64,000 nt of DNA from Victivallales bacterium (GTDB taxonomy: Bacteria > Verrucomicrobiota > Lentisphaeria > Victivallales > SZUA-371), in assembly GCA_963677165.2 (NCBI GenBank), contig CAXXSX010000002.1, positions 421,988-485,987 of the forward strand, read 5' to 3'. Of the stretch, positions 1 through 25,791 are shown piece by piece. Within the stretch, counting starts at the first letter, position 1. Each line of letters opens with the position of its first letter. The position numbers were made by a program, and so were the translations under genes. Below the pieces are notes generated by a model. It had not been told where the DNA came from and searched no databases. It saw only the letters and a program-made list of their open reading frames with translations.

Positions 1-463
1 TCGGTTTCATCCGGTTGAGATCGTTAATGAAACGGTCGCTGATTGGTTTGGTATAATGACTCAGGCGGCTTTGGCTGATTCCAAGGGCGTGGATTAAAAG
101 ATTTTCCTGCTTGTAAATCATTTTAGCGAGGTTGCCGAGTTGCTTGGTTCCGAAGGGGGCGGCTTCTACGTGAATGTGAATTCCAGCGTTTCTATGTGGT
201 TTTGCTCCGGCTTGGCGTAAAGCTCTTACTACTTCCTGCAGAGTTTCAATATCGTTGTATTTCAGTATCGGGCTTACTACTTCGGCATGCGTTCCCGGGA
301 GGCTGCCGTCGTAAGCTGCTTTCCAAACTCTGCCGTCCGGCGCCGTTACTGTGGTATTGCTCAGTCTGCCGCCGATTACGCTTTTAATGGCTCTGGCTGC
401 TGTTGTTCTTGAAATTCCTACGGTTTCAATTTCAATTCCGAATTTTAAATCTTTCATATTCAT
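1..463 (-). CDS. Amidoligase-family protein (Amidoligase_2 / glutamine-synthetase-like COOH-NH2 ligase), N-terminal 154 aa only. The gene runs off the window.
   Basis: My own translation of the minus strand from the ATG at 463-461: MNMKDLKFGIEIETVGISRTTAARAIKSVIGG...DGSLPGTHAEVVSPILKY...AGIHIHVEA. The FGIEIE, E(V)VSP and GIHIH motifs are typical of the family. An AAGGAG RBS lies at 473-478 (reverse complement). Confidence 0.6.
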   Translation of the reverse strand, partial: MNMKDLKFGIEIETVGISRTTAARAIKSVIGGRLSNTTVTAPDGRVWKAAYDGSLPGTHAEVVSPILKYNDIETLQEVVRALRQAGAKPHRNAGIHIHVEAAPFGTKQLGNLAKMIYKQENLLIHALGISQSRLSHYTKPISDRFINDLNRMKP

Positions 464-563
464 TTGTTTAACTCCTTGTGTTTTGTAATTCGTTGCGCTC
501 GTTCGCTTTACTGTCCACACCATAGCGCCACACACGGAGACATCCAGTCGCAAAATAAACTTT

Positions 564-10074: not shown

Positions 10075-10102
10075 TTCACACTAACATAAAGGAAATATTG
10101 CC

Positions 10103-10366
10103 ATGGCTGAAAAAAAAATAATACTGGGAGTCGGAAATGACGAACTCAACTTCAACGTCAATACCGACAATTTCAACCGTTATACGAACGAATTAACCCC
10201 GGATAACAAGGTGCTTCCTGCAAAGAAATTTCTTCGCAGGAGTCTGGTCGGCAAAGAACAGGCTGAACTTCTGGATGAACTGATGGACAAAGGACTCACT
10301 CTGAATATGGTCGGAGAACTTATTCAGGAGTTCCAGGGCGAGATTGAGATCGCGGTAAAAAAATAA
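10103..10366 (+). CDS. Tail assembly chaperone, gpE-like (short, zero-frame product)
   Basis: 87 aa, immediately upstream of the tape measure gene. It ends in GTA AAA AAA TAA. Confidence 0.75.
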   Translation: MAEKKIILGVGNDELNFNVNTDNFNRYTNELTPDNKVLPAKKFLRRSLVGKEQAELLDELMDKGLTLNMVGELIQEFQGEIEIAVKK

Positions 10367-10542
10367 ACGCCCAGATCCGGGCATATAAACGGGATGAAGG
10401 CTCTCTTGGTCTGCTTTCCATATATGTCCGGAAATGGTTCCCCGGGCGTGAAGTCGATGACGAATCAATGGCTGAAGCGGCGTACCTGGAATGGGACTTC
10501 TGGGAAAAGCTTGGGAATATGCTGGGAGGAAAAGAAAATTAG
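10103..10542 (+). CDS. Tail assembly chaperone -1 frameshift fusion (gpE+E'-like): join 10103..10363 with 10363..10542
   Basis: The slippery heptamer A_AAA_AAA (10357-10363) ends one codon before the stop. The -1 frame stays open for 59 more codons (INAQIRAYKRDEGSLGLLSIYVRKWFPGREVDDESMAEAAYLEWDFWEKLGNMLGGKEN) up to the TAG at 10540-10542. Confidence 0.7.
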
Positions 10543-10694
10543 AGCTTTGCTGTTTTTTTGCGGAGTTTGTTTATCAGCTTAATCCTTCGCGGATCTCTTG
10601 AATTCGCAAACAGAATTAACCAGGCATTATGCAACGCTTTAGGCAGCATAAGTAAAAAGATAATTGCGATTATAAGCATGACAAAGCCAAACAT
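10539..10694 (-). CDS. 51-aa membrane protein with a basic tail, encoded antisense inside the tail operon (moron-like)
   Basis: My own translation: MFGFVMLIIAIIFLLMLPKALHNAWLILFANSRDPRRIKLINKLRKKTAKL. An AGGAG RBS lies 8 nt upstream of the ATG (10694-10692). A dedicated near-consensus promoter is present. The stop overlaps the E' stop by 4 nt. Confidence 0.55.
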   Translation of the reverse strand: MFGFVMLIIAIIFLLMLPKALHNAWLILFANSRDPRRIKLINKLRKKTAKL

Positions 10695-10720
10695 GGCAAA
10701 AACTCCTGTGTTTATAACAA

Positions 10721-10748
10721 ATTATAGCATGAATTAGATATAAGTCAA
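10721..10748 (-). promoter_or_regulatory. Near-consensus sigma70 promoter driving the antisense 51-aa ORF
   Basis: On the minus strand: TTGACT (10748-10743), 16-nt spacer, TATAAT (10726-10721). This is about 25 nt upstream of the ORF start and abuts the tape measure start codon. Confidence 0.6.
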
Positions 10749-10757
10749 GGAAACATC

Positions 10758-14659: not shown

Positions 14660-15195
14660 GCACTGAAACCCGTGACAGAATAAGCCTGAAATTCTGGCAG
14701 AATTCCGGTCAATTGACTCTGATCGGAGAAGTGGCCGACATTTTTTACGATAAATACCAGGCTCTGCTTGAAGATCTGACCGGTCAGGTTGACGCTGAAA
14801 CGGCTCCAATAAAAATGGTGGAGCTTCTTGGCTGGGAACGTGATATCGAACGTTTTCCAGGGGAGTCAGATGAACTCTTTCGGTTACGGGTAAAATATGC
14901 TCTGGCCAATGCACGTGACGCTGGCAGTAAAAGAGGCTTTGAAAAGATATGGGCACGTCTCGGACTGGGAGAGATTACACAGACCGAACGGTTCGATGAA
15001 GAAAACTGGGATGTTATCAATCTGGAGATTGATGAAACTGTGTTCGGTCAATATATGGAGTTGCTGGATGTGATGATCCGGCAATATGGCAGAACCTGCA
15101 GGCGCTATGAATTTGAGTCCGTCACTGAAGGAAAAGAAGGCTTCATACCATTTAATTTTAATTGTGAATATTTTAATACCAAGGCAGGACTATGA
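14656..15195 (+). CDS. Tail protein I-like (P2 gpI family)
   Basis: ELLGWERDIERFPGESDELFRLRV...GSKRGFEKIWARLGLG parallels gpI LLPWLAWAFSVDRWDEKWPEATKR...GTIGAIRRVVEPLGY. Its start overlaps the gpJ stop. Confidence 0.65.
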   Translation: MSTETRDRISLKFWQNSGQLTLIGEVADIFYDKYQALLEDLTGQVDAETAPIKMVELLGWERDIERFPGESDELFRLRVKYALANARDAGSKRGFEKIWARLGLGEITQTERFDEENWDVINLEIDETVFGQYMELLDVMIRQYGRTCRRYEFESVTEGKEGFIPFNFNCEYFNTKAGL

Positions 15196-16190
15196 GCGAA
15201 GAAAATATCAACCTTGAAGACAACTTTTTCACTTTCGGGGATCCGGAACCCGTCGAAAAAGAACACTTACTAGACTATCTGAATGTGTTTGCCGATATTG
15301 GCGGCGAATATTACCTCCCGCCGATTGATCTCTGCGGATTATCAATGATGCGGAGAGCCAATGGTCATCATGGCAGTTGTATTATTCTTCGCTCTAACAC
15401 AACGGCTAATGCTTATGTTTCCGGTCCGCTTCCGGTCCTGGAGCTGTCTTCTGCAGTAACCGACAAGCTGACATTTGGAAATGCTTATTTTCAGATACTC
15501 AGAAACTTGTTTGGACAGCCGACAGGCTTGGAGCATGTTCCTGCGTTGAATATGCGTGTCCGGACAAAAGGTCGTGGATATCGGTTACTGAAACCAAACG
15601 GAGAATATACTGACTTTGAGCCGGATGATATTATTCATGTGAAAGAATATGATACTCAGCAACAGATTTATGGCATTCCAGATTGGATCGGAGGTTTACA
15701 ATCTGCATTATTAAACCAGGACGCTACACTCTTTCGCAGGAAATATTTTGTAAACGGTGCACACCTTGGTTACATCCTTTATACATCCGATCCTAAGATG
15801 GATCCCAAGTTGGTAAAAGCCCTTCAACAGAAAGTTCGGGAAGGAAAAGGCGTCGGAAACTTCAAAAGTCTTCATGTTCATATTCCGAAAGGTGAAGAAA
15901 AAGCCTTCCAGATTATTCCGATTGGTGATATCTCGCAGAAAGATGAATTTAAGAACATAAAAAATATCTCTGCAGCTGATGTTCGCGAGGCACACAGGGT
16001 TCCTCCAGCGCTGATGGGAGTGGTTCCAGAAGGAGCCGCCAGCCTTGGAGATCCGGAGAAAGTCAAAGGGGTATATGAGCAAATAGAAGTTCAGTCAATG
16101 GCACGGTCCTTTGAGATTGTAAATAGAAAGTTACCGAAAAGGCTGCATCTAAAATTTATAGACTTTAAGACTGAAAAAAAGGAGGATTGA
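15192..16190 (+). CDS. Portal protein, P2 gpQ-like (PBSX-type)
   Basis: FTFGDPEPV..., ATLFRRKYFVNGAHLGYILY and GNFKSLHVHIP match gpQ FTFGEPVPV, ATLFRRKYYENGAHAGYIMY and GNFKNLFLYSP as I recall the P2 sequence. Confidence 0.85.
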   Translation: MSEENINLEDNFFTFGDPEPVEKEHLLDYLNVFADIGGEYYLPPIDLCGLSMMRRANGHHGSCIILRSNTTANAYVSGPLPVLELSSAVTDKLTFGNAYFQILRNLFGQPTGLEHVPALNMRVRTKGRGYRLLKPNGEYTDFEPDDIIHVKEYDTQQQIYGIPDWIGGLQSALLNQDATLFRRKYFVNGAHLGYILYTSDPKMDPKLVKALQQKVREGKGVGNFKSLHVHIPKGEEKAFQIIPIGDISQKDEFKNIKNISAADVREAHRVPPALMGVVPEGAASLGDPEKVKGVYEQIEVQSMARSFEIVNRKLPKRLHLKFIDFKTEKKED

Positions 16191-18324: not shown

Positions 18325-19062
18325 ATGTCTGATACTGATACTGATACAGCTATTGAAGAAACCTATGTGTTACGCACTCTAAAATTTTGGGATAGTAATA
18401 AGGTTTATACCCACACAGAAACAGTCAAGATGCAAAGTGATTTAGGAAATCCCCGAAATTGTACCGAAACCGACCTGCCAGATTTAGGCGAAAACGAGGC
18501 GGCGCAATGGAACGGCGAAAGCTGGGATACGGTCGCAGATTACCGGGGAACTGTTGTCTACAGCACCACTGACCAAACACAAACAACCTGGTCGGCAGTC
18601 GGTGCTATTGATGACGGTTACACCGAAACCGCCCCGCCTGAAAGTTACCCGGACTATTACAAATGGGATTCGGATTCTAGCTCCTGGATTGTTAATACCA
18701 GTAAAAAATCTGAGGTGCTGGCAGAACTCGTTGAACAATTCAATGCGGCCACGCAGTCGTTGATTCTGGAAAGCACTGTGACTTTTTCTAGTGATGCCGG
18801 ATCAATTACCGTTACTTGCGACGAAAGCACGCAGCAGAACGCAGCATTGCAGTATCCGCTGGTTTCGGAAAAGGATTATCCTTACACTGTTTGGGACAAA
18901 ACCGAAAGTCTGGATCTGGTAGACGCAGACGAACTGGCCGAGTTTTACAAATTGATCATGAATAAACCGCAAGAGATCCGGACGGAACGAAAGACAACCC
19001 GGGATACTTTTTATGACATGACCACTGCCGAGATCATCGAGCAGCTGGATGCATTAAGCTAA
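18325..19062 (+). CDS. Tail fibre assembly chaperone (gpG-position)
   Basis: 245 aa, acidic and Trp-rich (W..ESWDTVADYRGTVVYST). It lies immediately after the fibre gene. Confidence 0.5.
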   Translation: MSDTDTDTAIEETYVLRTLKFWDSNKVYTHTETVKMQSDLGNPRNCTETDLPDLGENEAAQWNGESWDTVADYRGTVVYSTTDQTQTTWSAVGAIDDGYTETAPPESYPDYYKWDSDSSSWIVNTSKKSEVLAELVEQFNAATQSLILESTVTFSSDAGSITVTCDESTQQNAALQYPLVSEKDYPYTVWDKTESLDLVDADELAEFYKLIMNKPQEIRTERKTTRDTFYDMTTAEIIEQLDALS

Positions 19063-19084: not shown

Positions 19085-19318
19085 ATGAGCGACGAGGATA
19101 AAAAAGATATAGCCGAGCTGGTAGCTCAGAACATTCAGGCCCAGCCATGTCCGCATGGGTTAACAACCGAAGAGGTTGCTGTACTGAAAGAATTTGCCCA
19201 GGCTTGGACCAGCAGCAAAAAAACGTTTATCAAAACAATTGTGTCCGGCATTGGATATGCAATTCTTGTTGCCATTTTTCTTGGAGTTATTGCAAAATTA
19301 AAGGAGCTGATAAAATGA
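19085..19318 (+). CDS. Small membrane protein with one C-terminal TM segment (holin candidate)
   Basis: 77 aa with a TM segment (FIKTIVSGIGYAILVAIFLGVIA) and a charged end. ATGA overlap with the next gene. Confidence 0.4.
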   Translation: MSDEDKKDIAELVAQNIQAQPCPHGLTTEEVAVLKEFAQAWTSSKKTFIKTIVSGIGYAILVAIFLGVIAKLKELIK

Positions 19319-20022
19319 GATTTTTAATCATAATTCTGGCGGCCATATCAATGGCCTGTCTAACCGGCTGCGGTGTTTTTTCTTCTGCTACCGAACAGGC
19401 AAAAGCATACACCGGCGCAGATCTGCATCTGGCTAGCGATGCAAAAAAGCTGGATCAGGCAACCGAAACAATCGATAAAACCAGCAAAAATACGGAAGTT
19501 TTAAGAGCGTCGACCGTTGTAAAATCTGTTGCAACGGAGCTTAAAAAAAAAGATAATGTGGCGAAAGCGCTGCAGCAAAGCCATGATGCACTTCAGAAAG
19601 AAAATACAGAGCTTAAGAGCAGCAAACAAAAGCGAGTAGATAACTTTTTTTTCTGTGGAATTGTTGCCGGTGGCGTTATGGTTGCAGCCAGTATTATCTT
19701 GTTTGTTGCAGCCAATGCGTCCGGAGTCGTTACCCTTACCGGATTAGCTATTCAGATGTTTATTGCCGGGCTAGGAATTATGCTGGCCAGCGGTGTCATG
19801 TTCGTGTTTTTCTTCTGGGGTGTAATGATTTTAGGGGTTGTCCTTTTGGGATGGTTAATCATGCTCATCTTTAAGATCTACAAAGACGGCAAATCATTTA
19901 TGGAATTATCCGGTAGCGTGTCCGGAGATAATAACAGCTTCAGTAAACGAACACAGACACTTCTTGAGAAGTTCCAAAAAAAGCAACAACCAAAAACGGA
20001 GACAGCAACCAATGGATGTTAA
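19315..20022 (+). CDS. Lipoprotein with a coiled-coil and C-terminal multi-TM region (spanin-like topology)
   Basis: From the ATG at 19315: MRFLIIILAAISMACLTGC, a lipobox L-T-G-C. A K/E/Q-rich helical segment follows, then about 4 hydrophobic segments (NFFFCGIVAGGVMVAASIILFVAA...LLGWLIMLIF). Confidence 0.5.
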   Translation: MRFLIIILAAISMACLTGCGVFSSATEQAKAYTGADLHLASDAKKLDQATETIDKTSKNTEVLRASTVVKSVATELKKKDNVAKALQQSHDALQKENTELKSSKQKRVDNFFFCGIVAGGVMVAASIILFVAANASGVVTLTGLAIQMFIAGLGIMLASGVMFVFFFWGVMILGVVLLGWLIMLIFKIYKDGKSFMELSGSVSGDNNSFSKRTQTLLEKFQKKQQPKTETATNGC

Positions 20023-21004
20023 TTTTCATTATTACGCAACGTACCTGGTAGCAGCCCGGGCCGGATATTGTCAGGCAGACGCCCGGGTAATCGCTCACGC
20101 CTGCCAGATGGTCGATGACAACGACACAAAATTTAAAATAGACGCCGGTTATCCGTCTGAATACAGCAATTACGTAAGTCAGACCATGAATATTGCAAAA
20201 CCCCGGGAGGATCTGCTGCGGTTTTATTTGTTTCATCATTTTATGCCAGGTGATCCGGGACACATTGATGCCAGACGTAAAGATGGAAAACGGCACGTCC
20301 TGAATACCACGCCTAACAGCAAAAACGCCCGAGCGGTCTTCCGGAAGGCAAAAGCAACCGGCAATTTGTACATGATCGGTATTGCCTGCCACATGATGGC
20401 AGATACTTACGCCCATCAAAATTTTATCGGTTATAAAGACGACATGAATGCAATGTCCGGAGTGCTGCAGGCTGCCATTCAAAATATTGGCCATGCTGAC
20501 GCATTGACTAAACCGGACGAAATAGGACTGTCCTGGACTGACGACAGACTTATGAAACCAGTTCGACATAACAATGAAATCTTTCTCGATGCAGCACAAT
20601 GTTTGTTTTACTTGTTAAAGGACAAATCTGATCTTCACATTCATGACGAAGCTGCTTGTCTAAATATGGATCTTTGCAATGCCTTCCGCCGGTGGAAGCC
20701 TGCCGATCGGATTCATTACATGAAGGAGTTGGCAAAAGAACCGGAATACAGCAGTCTGGATGTGCCTGTGTTAGGAGGGTTTAAGCTACCGGATTATGAT
20801 GCAGACGTCTGGTTCGATGACGCAATCATTAACGATCGTCACCAAGCGCTGAAATGGCTGGCGCCACGTTGGGCGTGGAAGTCCGGCAATTACAAACAAA
20901 GCAATTGGTATCAGTTCCAGGAAGCCGTCAAAGCTTACCAGGATATTTGCTGGTCTGTGTTAAATGATTCTGTTTTTTCTCAAATCTGCCTAAAAAATCT
21001 GTAA
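20012..21004 (+). CDS. Putative metal-dependent hydrolase with His/Asp motifs reminiscent of the zinc phospholipase C / P1-nuclease fold
   Basis: From the ATG at 20012: MDVNFHYYATYLVA..., HHFMPGD, ACHMMADTYAHQNF, IGHADALTKPD. The fold assignment is by motif resemblance only. Confidence 0.35.
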   Translation: MDVNFHYYATYLVAARAGYCQADARVIAHACQMVDDNDTKFKIDAGYPSEYSNYVSQTMNIAKPREDLLRFYLFHHFMPGDPGHIDARRKDGKRHVLNTTPNSKNARAVFRKAKATGNLYMIGIACHMMADTYAHQNFIGYKDDMNAMSGVLQAAIQNIGHADALTKPDEIGLSWTDDRLMKPVRHNNEIFLDAAQCLFYLLKDKSDLHIHDEAACLNMDLCNAFRRWKPADRIHYMKELAKEPEYSSLDVPVLGGFKLPDYDADVWFDDAIINDRHQALKWLAPRWAWKSGNYKQSNWYQFQEAVKAYQDICWSVLNDSVFSQICLKNL

Positions 21005-21014
21005 AGGTGAAAAA

Positions 21015-21518
21015 GTGATTATATCCGGAAATGGTTTAGAATTAACCGTCGAGTCGATTGGCAAAAACGTCAAGGTTGAAGCTTCTGCGGAATTTGATCG
21101 GAAAGACTTGTCCGGGCAAAATAGTTCCAGTGAAGTCTCGGCTGCCGGCAACAAGCCGAAACGCATTAGAGTTTCCATGATGGTCGAGAAAAAGAAAGCT
21201 GATAATATTACAACGCTTTTAAAAATGGCCGAGGCATTCGATTCTGACGGAAATCCAATCATATATACTATTTCAAGCAAGATTTCAAGAGTAATGCAGA
21301 TCCGACAGGCTATTTTCGATGGCGATGTCCGTGTCCGGGAATCGGAAGGATTATTAAGCTTTGATGTACACTTCGAACTCAAGGAAATGAGTTCTCCGGC
21401 AGAGAAAAAAGAAGAAAGAGAACGCAGCAAAGCAAGCGAAAAAGTTGAAACTGCCGACGGAGAAGTTCAAGTTGGCAGCGCTAATCATGAGAAAGTGGTC
21501 GAGGCTGCCTCAACATGA
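21015..21518 (+). CDS. Tail protein, gpU-like
   Basis: 167 aa, GTG start. The pattern ...RIRVSMMVEKK...LLKMAEAFDSDGNPIIYTI...SFDVHFELKE resembles the gpU family. It precedes hub-like and spike-like genes. Confidence 0.45.
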   Translation: MIISGNGLELTVESIGKNVKVEASAEFDRKDLSGQNSSSEVSAAGNKPKRIRVSMMVEKKKADNITTLLKMAEAFDSDGNPIIYTISSKISRVMQIRQAIFDGDVRVRESEGLLSFDVHFELKEMSSPAEKKEERERSKASEKVETADGEVQVGSANHEKVVEAAST

Positions 21519-25525: not shown

Positions 25526-25701
25526 TTTATGCAAAAATGTTAATTTGCGAAACCGGATTATGCAGGATCTAACCAGAAATTAATTTTCACAAAGTGAAAG
25601 CAATGAAAAAATGAAGTATTCAAGAAAAGCGGCTCACATACATTTTCACATACAAATAGATCACTCAGAGGAGTCCTAAAGGAAAATTTTGAGGGAGAAA
25701 G

Positions 25702-25791
25702 TGGCGGAGGGGGTGGGATTCGAACCCACGGAGGCGTTAACCTCGGCGGTTTTCAAGACCGCTGCCTTAAACCAGACTCGACCACCCCTCC
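25702..25791 (-). tRNA. tRNA-Ser (anticodon UGA)
   Basis: Folded by hand. Acceptor GGAGGGG/CCCCTCC, anticodon arm GCGGT-CTTGAAA-ACCGC, long variable arm, T arm GTGGG-TTCGAAT-CCCAC, encoded CCA. Confidence 0.9.

What the first reader, a model, noticed from the sequence alone, without database searches (positions are those of the whole stretch)
19085..21004. The lysis-position cassette has no recognisable endolysin: holin-like protein + lipoprotein/multi-TM protein + His/Asp metal-hydrolase
Between the fibre-assembly gene and the gpU-like gene, P2 relatives could be expected to carry lysis functions. Three overlapping genes are found there. The first is a 77-aa single-TM protein. The second is a 235-aa protein with a lipobox (LTGC), a coiled-coil and about 4 C-terminal TM segments. 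An outer-membrane lipid anchor plus an inner-membrane anchor in one chain is the topology of unimolecular spanins, but here it is fused to a multi-TM block. The third is a 330-aa soluble protein with FHYYATY, HHFMPGD, CHMMADTYAHQNF and IGHADA motifs. These are reminiscent of the zinc phospholipase C / P1 nuclease fold rather than of a lysozyme, amidase, transglycosylase or endopeptidase. No other candidate muralytic gene is seen in the 25 kb. This could be a non-canonical, membrane-targeting lysis enzyme or a new endolysin fold in a PVC host.
Basis: inference. Interest (0 to 1): 0.6.

Follow-up and report, generated by a model that had tools for sequence, protein, structure and literature searches.

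The report
Unusual three-gene phage envelope cassette
A complete prophage in a PVC-group bacterium has no recognisable cell-wall-cutting enzyme, but it carries three tightly linked late genes (a small membrane protein, a lipid-anchored three-helix membrane protein and a leaderless His/Asp metal enzyme of unknown function) that recur together in other phages and may be an unconventional way of bursting the host, though this is unproven.

Summary
Three coupled genes lie at 19085-21004: g1 (77 aa, one C-terminal TM helix), g2 (235 aa, lipobox LTGC, periplasmic helices, 3 TM helices) and g3 (330 aa, soluble). g3 is a clear member of Pfam DUF6765 (E 2.3e-61), an uncharacterised family. Its invariant residues follow the H-D-H-H-D-H-H-D ligand order of S1/P1 nucleases, but profile and fold searches do not reach significance.

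I delimited the whole 39-kb HP1-like prophage by a 29-bp att repeat. No endolysin, holin or spanin family was found in it. The slot where relative phi3 keeps endolysin and spanin is empty.

g2 defines a rare phage-only lipoprotein family. The g2-DUF6765 pair occurs in five independent phages, and their DUF6765 proteins form one exclusive clade (support 0.98).

Counter-evidence: DUF6765 is mostly a stand-alone, leaderless chromosomal gene. It sits in moron-like positions in other phages. g2 also occurs without it, and a control prophage with g2 alone also lacks any detectable endolysin.

Best reading (about 0.4): a late-expressed lysis or envelope module with a non-muralytic effector. Rivals are superinfection exclusion, or an accessory enzyme beside membrane lysis proteins.

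The parts
19085..19318 (+). g1: 77-aa tail-anchored membrane protein (acidic N-terminal 45 aa, one TM helix ~47-70, KLKELIK tail); holin-like candidate
   Evidence: ORF and RBS. TM scan. No Pfam, PHROG, NCBIfam or PADLOC family. Non-homologous small TM ORFs sit at the same place upstream of g2 in L003 (92 aa), G011/L128 (79 aa) and L112 (68 aa).
19315..20022 (+). g2: 235-aa lipoprotein (lipobox LTGC, Cys19) with periplasmic helices, 3 TM helices and a cytoplasmic tail; member of a rare phage-only family
   Evidence: Profile search: 65 relatives, all about 220-260 aa with a lipobox. AF2 model pLDDT 74 with helices 39-56, 60-136, 139-164 and 166-202. Weak Foldseek resemblance to the SmhB/AhlB pore-forming toxins.
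20012..21004 (+). g3: 330-aa leaderless soluble DUF6765 protein with invariant H6 D35 N37 Q57 H76 H127 D131 H135 H161 D169 W175 D177 N187; probable multinuclear metal hydrolase
   Evidence: Pfam PF20551 E 2.3e-61. Alignments. AF2 pLDDT 90, pTM 0.92. Fold searches without significant hits.
18325..19062 (+). Upstream flank: tail-fibre assembly protein
   Evidence: phrog_1807 E 1.5e-17 and phrog_105 E 1.4e-16.
21015..21518 (+).
   Evidence: PF25759 E 5.3e-31 and phrog_1398 E 1.9e-34.
10075..10757 (+). Empty lysis slot. The space between tube and tape measure, where relative phi3 carries endolysin and Rz-like spanin, holds only the chaperone ORFs here.
   Evidence: phi3 annotation. ORF list for this region. 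tblastn of phi3 lysis proteins found nothing.
25698..25726 (.). attR core (29 bp, inside the 3' end of tRNA-Ser). Its twin lies at C2:408726, beside the integrase. The pair delimits a prophage of about 39 kb.
   Evidence: Exact 29-bp repeat. tRNA-Ser. Integrase phrog_1 E 3.4e-38.

Best explanation
The three genes form one late-expressed phage module that acts on the host envelope, and it is most likely this prophage's lysis cassette.

Proposed mechanism:
- g1, the small tail-anchored membrane protein, acts as the holin-like trigger.
- g2 is lipid-anchored at its N-terminus, crosses the periplasm as helices and sits in the inner membrane with three helices. It acts as a spanin-like and/or pore-forming component that links the two membranes.
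- g3 (DUF6765) has no signal peptide. It accumulates in the cytoplasm and is the soluble effector, reaching or attacking the envelope once the membrane proteins fire.
- g3's chemistry is probably phosphoester hydrolysis at a multinuclear zinc site of the S1/P1-nuclease / phospholipase-C type. Its target would then be a phosphodiester-containing envelope component (phospholipid, or a lipid-linked cell-wall precursor) and not the glycan or peptide bonds cut by classical endolysins.

Shown here: gene structure, translational coupling, family membership, invariant residues, co-inheritance of g2 and g3, and absence of recognisable lysis genes.

Inferred only: the roles of g1 and g2, the metal site, the substrate, and lysis itself.
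For: 1. Late-operon setting. The cassette is translationally coupled, lies inside the late tail operon, and has no promoter or terminator room around it.
2. No other lysis genes. I delimited the whole prophage. No ORF matches an endolysin, holin or spanin family. The slot that holds endolysin and Rz in the relative phi3 is empty. g1 and g2 are the only membrane proteins of the late operon.
3. Independent recurrence. The g2-DUF6765 pair recurs in five independent phages of different morphotypes: the window, L003, IMG/VR contig L008, L114 and the G011 prophage L128. It is usually preceded by a small non-homologous TM ORF, which is the pattern expected of holins.
4. Co-inheritance. The five paired DUF6765 proteins form an exclusive clade with support 0.98 among 83 sequences, and all catalytic-looking residues are kept. 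This indicates a long-standing functional partnership.
5. A second complete prophage. In G011 the cassette is the last block of the late operon after the fibre and its assembly gene, and 33 unknown ORFs gave no lysin family.
6. g2 topology. A lipobox plus about 90 periplasmic, mostly helical residues plus TM helices can bridge the two membranes. There is a weak Rz-like spanin hit (E 0.021) and a weak resemblance to alpha-pore-forming toxins.
7. g3 active site. Five invariant His and three to four invariant Asp lie in the order H-D-H-H-D-H-H-D. The first His is at residue 6 of a fixed N-terminus. This matches the S1-P1 alignment built here (W1 H6 D57 H77 H139 D143 H149 H190 D194).
8. Host wall. 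The three PVC genomes examined contain SLT and Amidase_3 housekeeping genes, so the hosts have a wall. None of these genes lies in the prophages. Phage_lysozyme, Amidase_2 and Peptidase_M15_4 are absent from all three genomes.
Against: - DUF6765 is mostly chromosomal. It occurs in at least 411 species genomes across many phyla, is leaderless and stand-alone, and has no conserved neighbours. That is unlike a dedicated lysis enzyme.
- Distant DUF6765-like genes sit in moron-like places in other phages. In L010/L011 the gene is on the opposite strand inside a baseplate cluster. In L009 it lies downstream of what looks by eye like an Amidase_2 endolysin.
- g2 occurs without DUF6765 in L112, L115, three G169 prophages and G172. 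In L113 it lies in an early region, after a gene that looks RusA-like by eye.
- The control prophage of G169 (g2 only) also shows no Pfam-detectable endolysin. 'No endolysin found' may therefore only mean that the lysins of PVC phages are unrecognisable.
- A phosphoesterase does not cut peptidoglycan, so wall breakdown is unexplained.
- The fold and homology link to PLC/P1 is not significant.
Confidence: 0.4

Rival explanations
1. Superinfection-exclusion or envelope-modifying accessory module. g2 is a membrane lipoprotein that blocks a receptor or DNA entry, as Cor, Llp, Imm or Sie proteins do. DUF6765 is a cytoplasmic phosphodiesterase or nuclease that works with it, for example by destroying incoming nucleic acid at the entry site. 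Lysis is done by unrecognised genes.
For: g2 family genes lie directly after tail-fibre or fibre-assembly genes, which by recalled knowledge is the classical place of cor/llp-type exclusion genes, in the window, L003, L112, L114, L115, L128, L129-L131 and L132. One copy lies in an early region (L113). g2 occurs without DUF6765 in several phages. DUF6765-like genes are moron-like cargo in L009 and L010/L011. DUF6765 has no signal peptide.
Against: There is no promoter or terminator space around the cassette in the window, so lysogen expression is not evident. By recalled knowledge the known receptor-blocking lipoproteins are small and have no TM helices. g2 is the single most widely shared gene among otherwise unrelated phages of these hosts, which is unusual for exclusion genes. 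The pair is also on a 178-kb IMG/VR contig that encodes ribonucleotide reductase. No PADLOC family matches.
Confidence: 0.25
2. Mixed reading. g1 and g2 are the membrane lysis proteins (holin-like and spanin-like). DUF6765 is an unrelated accessory enzyme carried alongside them, for example a nuclease for host nucleic-acid scavenging, a lipid-remodelling enzyme or an anti-defence enzyme. The true endolysin is an unrecognised protein elsewhere in the prophage.
For: g2 is present in all of these phages, but DUF6765 only in a subset. The G169 control shows that endolysins of these phages can escape detection. The DUF6765 ligand pattern is that of nucleases and phospholipases, not muralytic enzymes. 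The family is mainly cytoplasmic and chromosomal.
Against: The exclusive clade and strict adjacency of the paired DUF6765 genes argue for a functional tie to g2. An all-against-all comparison of these prophages found no shared unknown protein that could be a common endolysin. No other late gene of the window prophage is unassigned.
Confidence: 0.2
3. Toxin-immunity or abortive-infection-type cargo. DUF6765 is a toxic phosphoesterase, and the lipoprotein g2 is its membrane-bound regulator or immunity protein, by analogy with lipase effectors and their lipoprotein immunity proteins.
For: One chromosomal DUF6765 (L005) lies beside Tle1-like lipase genes and a lipoprotein gene. Several chromosomal loci have an upstream lipoprotein gene, and three of these lipoproteins are homologous to each other. 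The distribution is patchy, as for mobile elements.
Against: No secretion-system genes were seen next to the phage cassettes. Most chromosomal DUF6765 genes have no partner. No PADLOC match. The L005 lipoprotein more likely belongs to the neighbouring Tle1-like gene. The cassette lies inside a late structural operon.
Confidence: 0.08

Closest known systems
Pfam DUF6765 (PF20551), uncharacterised family
   Same: g3 matches over its whole length (residues 1-314 of 330, 208.6 bits against a cut-off of 26.6). It shares every invariant residue of the family.
   Different: The window's protein belongs to a small clade that is always paired with the g2 lipoprotein in phages. Most family members are stand-alone chromosomal genes.
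S1/P1 nuclease and zinc-dependent phospholipase C superfamily (trinuclear zinc phosphoesterases)
   Same: A mainly alpha-helical model. Five His and three Asp in the same order H-D-H-H-D-H-H-D. An H-x3-D motif inside a helix. The first His five residues after a fixed N-terminus. These families are the recurrent top (but non-significant) Foldseek hits, and Zn_dep_PLPC is the only weak Pfam hit.
   Different: There is no significant sequence, profile or structural similarity (E 0.033; hhalign probability 0.1; Foldseek E >= 1, TM about 0.2). g3 has no signal peptide, whereas by recalled knowledge the known members are secreted. g3 has an extra C-terminal helical half, and the spacing of the last ligands differs.
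Unimolecular spanin (T1 gp11 type; Kongari et al. 2018, PMC6139136)
   Same: g2 has an N-terminal lipoprotein signal, a C-terminal membrane anchor, no periplasmic cysteine, and lies next to candidate lysis genes.
   Different: g2 has three TM helices instead of one. Its periplasmic domain is helical, whereas that of gp11 is beta-rich. It has a conserved cytoplasmic tail motif. It shows no sequence similarity to any spanin family and its function is untested.
Canonical holin-endolysin-spanin cassette of HP1-like Peduoviridae (e.g. Pseudomonas phage phi3, NC_030940)
   Same: A three-part module of membrane proteins plus a soluble leaderless enzyme, co-transcribed with late genes.
   Different: The location differs: after the fibre-assembly gene, not between tube and tape measure. 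The enzyme is not a lysozyme, amidase, transglycosylase or peptidase. The gene order is holin-like, spanin-like, enzyme.
Receptor-blocking / superinfection-exclusion lipoproteins (Cor, T5 Llp)
   Same: A lipoprotein gene placed directly beside tail-fibre genes.
   Different: By recalled knowledge those proteins are small outer-membrane lipoproteins without TM helices and without an enzyme partner.

Membership tests
DUF6765 (PF20551) | Score above the Pfam gathering threshold over the full-length model | tested here: met
   208.6 bits against a cut-off of 26.6; residues 1-314 match profile positions 1-322 of 325. 105 homologues besides the window's own protein share the domain.
S1-P1 nuclease / Zn-dependent PLC superfamily | Significant sequence or profile similarity to PF02265 or PF00882 | tested here: not met
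   PF00882 E 0.033, 14.6 bits against a cut-off of 26.8. hhalign of A1 against an S1-P1 alignment gave probability 0.14. A PDB sequence-profile search found nothing relevant.
S1-P1 nuclease / Zn-dependent PLC superfamily | Shared fold by structure comparison | tested here: inconclusive
   The model is confident (pLDDT 90). S1 nuclease, B. cereus PC-PLC and alpha-toxin entries fill 13 of the top 22 Foldseek hits, but at E 1.5-7.7 and TM about 0.2.
S1-P1 nuclease / Zn-dependent PLC superfamily | Metal-ligand set of five His and three acidic residues in conserved order, plus a free N-terminal residue close to the first His | tested here: met
   DUF6765 invariants are H6 D35 H76 H127 D131 H135 H161 D169, with residue 1 fixed. 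S1-P1 invariants are W1 H6 D57 H77 H139 D143 H149 H190 D194. This is a match of pattern only; metal binding was not tested.
S1-P1 nuclease / Zn-dependent PLC superfamily | Secreted enzyme whose mature N-terminus is made by signal-peptide cleavage (recalled knowledge) | tested here: not met
   g3 and nearly all homologues start M-D/N-x-E/D-F-H with no leader.
Phage endolysin (muralytic enzyme) | Catalytic domain of a lysozyme, transglycosylase, amidase or peptidase family, or a peptidoglycan-binding domain | tested here: not met
   No such Pfam, PHROG or NCBIfam hit for g3. No match in 50,697 deposited phage genomes or in BFVD.
Phage endolysin (muralytic enzyme) | Degrades cell wall / required for lysis | not testable with these tools
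   Needs a zymogram, a lysis assay or a knockout.
Holin (g1) | Small protein with at least one TM domain and a charged end, encoded beside the lytic enzyme | tested here: inconclusive
   77 aa, one TM helix, KLKELIK tail, first gene of the cassette. There is no holin family match, and the N-terminal 45 aa soluble domain is atypical.
Unimolecular spanin (g2) | N-terminal lipoylation signal (lipobox + Cys) | tested here: met
   LTGC with Cys19. Gly-Cys is invariant in 19 family members.
Unimolecular spanin (g2) | Single C-terminal TM domain and a beta-rich periplasmic domain (T1 gp11 prototype, PMC6139136) | tested here: not met
   Three TM helices and a helical periplasmic part in the model. 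Feature list.
Unimolecular spanin (g2) | Complements an Rz/Rz1 lysis defect | not testable with these tools
   Requires a lambda RzamRz1am complementation experiment.
Known anti-phage defence systems (PADLOC) | Match to a defence-system protein model | tested here: not met
   No meaningful hit for g1, g2 or g3.

The most novel reading that the evidence does not exclude
DUF6765 is a new class of phage lysis effector. It would be a leaderless, trinuclear-metal phosphoesterase that, together with a lipoprotein/3-TM partner (a new spanin-holin hybrid family), lets phages of PVC bacteria lyse their hosts without any muralytic endolysin. It might do this by destroying membrane phospholipid or lipid-linked wall precursors.
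Probability: 0.25. Interest if true: 0.85.

Novelty: new variant of a known kind. Interest (0 to 1): 0.55.

Why it matters
Almost all tailed phages studied so far burst their hosts with a holin plus a wall-cutting endolysin, and in Gram-negative hosts usually a spanin as well. Phages of the PVC superphylum are nearly unstudied.

In three large PVC genomes with several prophages I found no Phage_lysozyme, Amidase_2 or Peptidase_M15_4 gene at all. The prophages instead share a previously undescribed lipoprotein/3-TM protein. In one lineage this protein is permanently coupled to an uncharacterised metalloenzyme family, DUF6765, for which the paper library holds no mention.

If this module causes lysis, it would add a new enzyme class and a new membrane component to the lysis repertoire, and it would give DUF6765 its first function. 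If it does not, it is still a conserved phage-envelope module whose role (exclusion, toxin, accessory enzyme) can be tested with simple expression experiments.

Tried and rejected
- Canonical lysis genes elsewhere in the prophage. I scanned essentially every ORF of the 39-kb element with PHROGs and/or Pfam, ran tblastn with the phi3 endolysin and Rz proteins, and ran six-frame family searches of the genome. Nothing was found.
- Formal homology of g3 to S1-P1 nuclease by profile-profile comparison: negative. Too few PF00882 members were available in related genomes to build a useful second profile.
- PDB sequence-profile search and BFVD fold search: no relevant hits.
- g2 or g3 in deposited phage genomes: none.
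- Conserved neighbours of chromosomal DUF6765: only lineage-specific synteny. An upstream lipoprotein theme appeared in a few loci but is not general.
- Known defence-system models (PADLOC): only coiled-coil noise.
- Anticorrelation test. I asked whether phages with g2 but no DUF6765 carry a canonical endolysin. The G169 control prophage showed none, so the test did not discriminate and it weakens the elimination argument.
- A shared unknown endolysin among g2-bearing prophages: none by all-against-all BLAST.
- Literature: no paper mentions DUF6765. Nothing useful on Kiritimatiellota prophages.
- GH108 and GH19 searches are uninformative because the control genomes did not ring.
Full report
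**Observation.** The three genes exist as described.
- g1 is 19085-19318 (77 aa).
- g2 is 19315-20022 (235 aa, counted from the internal ATG that gives MRFLIIILAAISMACLTGC).
- g3 is 20012-21004 (330 aa, starting MDVNFHYYATY).
- g1 and g2 overlap by ATGA, and g2 and g3 overlap by 11 nt.
- Each start has a Shine-Dalgarno-like sequence.
- The gaps to the tail-fibre assembly gene (18325-19062) and to the next gene (21015) are 22 and 10 nt. There is no + strand terminator, and only weak promoter-like matches at background frequency.
- The cassette is therefore part of the late tail operon.
- The downstream gene is an HP1_ORF34 baseplate protein (PF25759, E 5.3e-31) and not a demonstrated gpU.

**The prophage as a whole.**
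- The window is C2:421988-485987 of a 6.8-Mb genome.
- A 29-bp exact repeat (AAAGTGGCGGAGGGGGTGGGATTCGAACC) lies at window 25698, inside the 3' end of a tRNA-Ser gene. Its twin lies at C2:408726, next to an integrase gene. Together they delimit an element of about 39 kb.
- Its morphogenetic genes are HP1/P2-like: terminase, scaffold, capsid, adaptor, sheath, tube, tape measure, baseplate J/I, fibre.
- In the annotated relative Pseudomonas phage phi3 (sheath 44% identical), the endolysin and Rz-like spanin lie between the tube gene and the tape-measure chaperones.
- In the window that 684-nt interval holds only the chaperone ORFs. The phi3 lysis proteins find nothing in the prophage or the genome.
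By recalled knowledge P2 also keeps its lysis genes elsewhere.
No ORF hits an endolysin, holin or spanin family in Pfam or PHROGs.
- The only membrane proteins on the late strand are g1, g2 and the tape measure.
- The best named relatives of a flanking AGE epimerase are Victivallales/Victivallaceae (68-71%), Tichowtungia (68%) and Lentisphaeria (62-64%). A PVC host is therefore supported.

**g3.**
- g3 is a full-length member of Pfam DUF6765 (E 2.3e-61), with a sub-threshold hit to Zn_dep_PLPC (E 0.033) over residues 120-147.
- The word-indexed search returned 105 homologues besides the window's own protein. The closest is 50% identical.
- In 83 aligned sequences H6, D35, N37, Q57, H76, H127, D131, H135, H161, D169, W175, D177 and N187 are invariant.
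- Nearly every protein starts exactly five residues before the first His (M-D/N-x-E/D-F-H) and has no leader.
- An alignment of S1-P1 nucleases taken from related genomes has the invariants W1 H6 D57 H77 H139 D143 H149 H190 D194. That is the same ligand order H-D-H-H-D-H-H-D, with the same H-x3-D motif and the same distance of the first His from residue 1.
- From recalled knowledge of P1 nuclease and B. cereus PLC, these residues and the free N-terminal residue bind three zinc ions.
- The AlphaFold model is confident (pLDDT 90, pTM 0.92) and mostly helical.
- Foldseek finds no significant match in the PDB. S1 nuclease, PC-PLC and alpha-toxin entries make up 13 of the top 22 hits, but at E 1.5-7.7.
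- BFVD gives nothing. A PDB profile search gives nothing relevant. hhalign against the S1-P1 profile is negative.
- I therefore treat 'works like a trinuclear-zinc phosphoesterase' as plausible, and 'is a member of that superfamily' as unproven.

**Distribution of DUF6765.**
- The family was found in at least 411 species genomes of many phyla: Cyanobacteria, Desulfobacterota, Binatia, Alpha- and Gammaproteobacteria, Nitrospirota, Halanaerobiales, Clostridia, Bacteroidota, Kiritimatiellae, Pirellulaceae and others.
- In 80 fetched loci the neighbours are not conserved beyond lineage-specific synteny.
- A few loci have an upstream lipoprotein gene. Three of these lipoproteins are homologous to each other but unrelated to g2.
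- One locus lies beside Tle1-like lipase genes.
- Only 2 of 41 genomes (the window's own plus 40 relatives) carry DUF6765.
- No deposited phage genome encodes it, and no paper in the library mentions it.

**g2.**
- The word-indexed search found only g2 itself.
- A profile of three copies found 65 relatives among 1.84 billion representatives, 17 of them below E 1e-10.
- All sequences that I fetched and inspected are about 220-260 aa. They have a lipobox (Gly-Cys invariant), a charged helical segment and a hydrophobic block. Most have a C-terminal Q-S-P-x-T-Q...I-K motif.
- The model (pLDDT 74) shows a signal helix, a disordered linker and helices 39-56 and 60-136. The second helix runs from the periplasm into the first TM segment. 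Two more TM helices and a cytoplasmic helix follow.
- The topology is therefore lipid-anchored N-terminus outside, three TM helices, C-terminus inside. About 90 periplasmic residues could span a periplasm.
- The top Foldseek hits are the SmhB/AhlB components of tripartite alpha-pore-forming toxins (E 0.24-1.7, probability up to 0.92). These are not significant.
- There is a weak PHROG hit to an Rz-like spanin (E 0.021).

**Co-occurrence.** g2 lies immediately upstream of DUF6765 in five independent contexts:
- the window;
- L003/L004, where it follows fibre-like genes and lies two genes (about 440 bp) from an integrase;
- the 178-kb IMG/VR contig L008, which also encodes ribonucleotide reductase;
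- L114, where a TnpB gene has been inserted between the two genes;
- a second-type prophage of genome G011, where fibre, fibre-assembly gene, a 79-aa TM protein, g2 and DUF6765 close the late operon.

Small TM ORFs without mutual similarity precede g2 in the window, L003, L128 and L112, and possibly in L008. In a tree of 83 DUF6765 proteins the five g2-paired ones form an exclusive clade with support 0.98. The pairing therefore arose once and has been maintained through deep divergence (44-50% identity to the window protein).

**Controls and counter-evidence.**
- g2 also occurs alone. In L112 it is the last late gene before an integrase. In L115, L129-L131 and L132 it follows fibre-like genes. 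In L113 it lies in an early region, after a gene that looks RusA-like by eye.
- Distant DUF6765-like genes are cargo in other phages. In L010/L011 the gene is on the opposite strand between baseplate genes. In L009 it is fused to a C-terminal domain that looks jacalin-like by eye, downstream of what looks like an Amidase_2 endolysin (neither was tested by Pfam).
- I scanned 33 unassigned ORFs of the G011 prophage and found no lysin family.
- The control G169 prophage has g2 but no DUF6765, and 27 of its ORFs also gave none. Failure to find an endolysin is therefore not specific to DUF6765-bearing phages, and the elimination argument is weak.
- Six-frame searches of G000, G011 and G169 found no Phage_lysozyme, Amidase_2 or Peptidase_M15_4 anywhere. 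SLT and Amidase_3 genes occur only outside the g2-bearing prophage regions that I mapped.
- The hosts therefore have a wall and housekeeping autolysins, but their prophages lack the common lysin families. The GH108 and GH19 searches were uninformative because the controls were silent.
- No shared unknown protein that could be a common endolysin emerged from an all-against-all comparison.
- PADLOC gave nothing.

**Interpretation.** The evidence firmly shows a conserved, vertically co-inherited phage module: a small TM protein, a new lipoprotein/3-TM family, and a DUF6765 metalloenzyme. It is embedded in late operons of phages whose other genes offer no lysis candidates.
- I rate a lysis cassette with a non-muralytic effector as the single most likely reading, at about 0.4. 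It explains late-operon embedding, holin-like diversity of the first gene, spanin-like topology of the second, the leaderless soluble third protein, and the empty canonical slot.
- The reading does not explain how peptidoglycan would be breached. A phosphoesterase could act on phospholipid or on lipid-linked precursors, which is an inference without any test here.
- The main rivals are an exclusion or accessory module beside the fibre genes (about 0.25), and a mixed model in which g1 and g2 are lysis proteins but DUF6765 is an accessory enzyme (about 0.2). A toxin-immunity or abortive-infection role is less likely (about 0.08).

**Comparison and novelty.** g3 is a member of DUF6765. It resembles S1/P1 nuclease and zinc PLC in ligand pattern only. 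g2 shares the end-to-end topology of unimolecular spanins (features from PMC6139136) but fails the single-TM and beta-rich criteria and has no sequence relative among them. The module is best filed as a new variant of a known kind (a phage late membrane/enzyme cassette) whose function is unproven. Simple expression, complementation and knockout experiments would decide between the readings.

Noticed in passing
window 15192-16190 (+): The P2-Q-type portal gene (phrog_68 E 7.7e-110; TIGR01540 E 1.2e-59) lies between the gpI-like tail gene and the tail fibre gene. It is not beside the terminase on the opposite strand, where it lies in phi3 (and, by recalled knowledge, in P2).
   Followed up: partly
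window 10539-10694 (-): An antisense 51-aa ORF with one TM helix and a strongly basic tail lies in the gap before the tape-measure gene. It has the look of a small membrane toxin or holin-like peptide.
   Followed up: no
L001 18255-18743 (C2:420254-420742); L003 9053-9553(-); G011 prophage (L133 10465-10944, -): A staphylococcal-nuclease-type protein with a signal peptide is conserved in the early or integrase-proximal arm of three cassette-bearing phages. Each time it lies near zinc-ribbon or TM proteins.
   Followed up: no
window 2-553 (-) continuing into L001 19579-19986; L001 19116-19520 (-); L115 6806-9417; L132 63-2733: An amidoligase_2 plus GGACT (gamma-glutamyl cyclotransferase) cargo, with GATase_6 in L115, recurs in unrelated prophages that also carry the g2 family.
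   Followed up: partly
L114 1781-3037 (-): A Cas12f/TnpB-like gene is inserted exactly between the g2 homologue and its DUF6765 partner.
   Followed up: no
L010/L011 8001-9044 (+): A distant DUF6765-like gene sits on the opposite strand between baseplate-J-like and gpW-like genes of a high-GC myovirus-like cluster. This is a typical moron arrangement.
   Followed up: partly
L009 4180-5832 (+): A 550-aa protein has an N-terminal DUF6765-like domain and a C-terminal region that looks like a jacalin-type lectin by eye. An Amidase_2-like endolysin appears to lie upstream on the same contig. Neither was confirmed by Pfam.
   Followed up: no
genomes G000, G011, G169: Three PVC genomes of 6.8-9.3 Mb with several prophages contain no Phage_lysozyme, Amidase_2 or Peptidase_M15_4 match in six frames. 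The E. coli, Bacillus and other controls rang.
   Followed up: partly
L017 4891-5685, L027 2281-2928, L048 310-996: A homologous helical lipoprotein (215-264 aa) lies about 300 nt upstream of chromosomal DUF6765 genes in a Desulfuromonadales, an alphaproteobacterial and a Melioribacteraceae genome. This suggests a second mobile lipoprotein-DUF6765 arrangement.
   Followed up: partly
L136 16454-16738 (G169 prophage): A 94-aa tail-anchored protein has an N-terminal region reminiscent of the 92-aa protein upstream of g2 in L003. In G169 it lies between the head genes and the connector genes.
   Followed up: no
G011 prophage (L133/L134/L128), ORF not resolved: Among 33 scanned ORFs, one gave a weak Pfam hit (E 1.2e-4) to PF07737. 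It is probably part of a minor-capsid-type protein. I did not examine it further.
   Followed up: no
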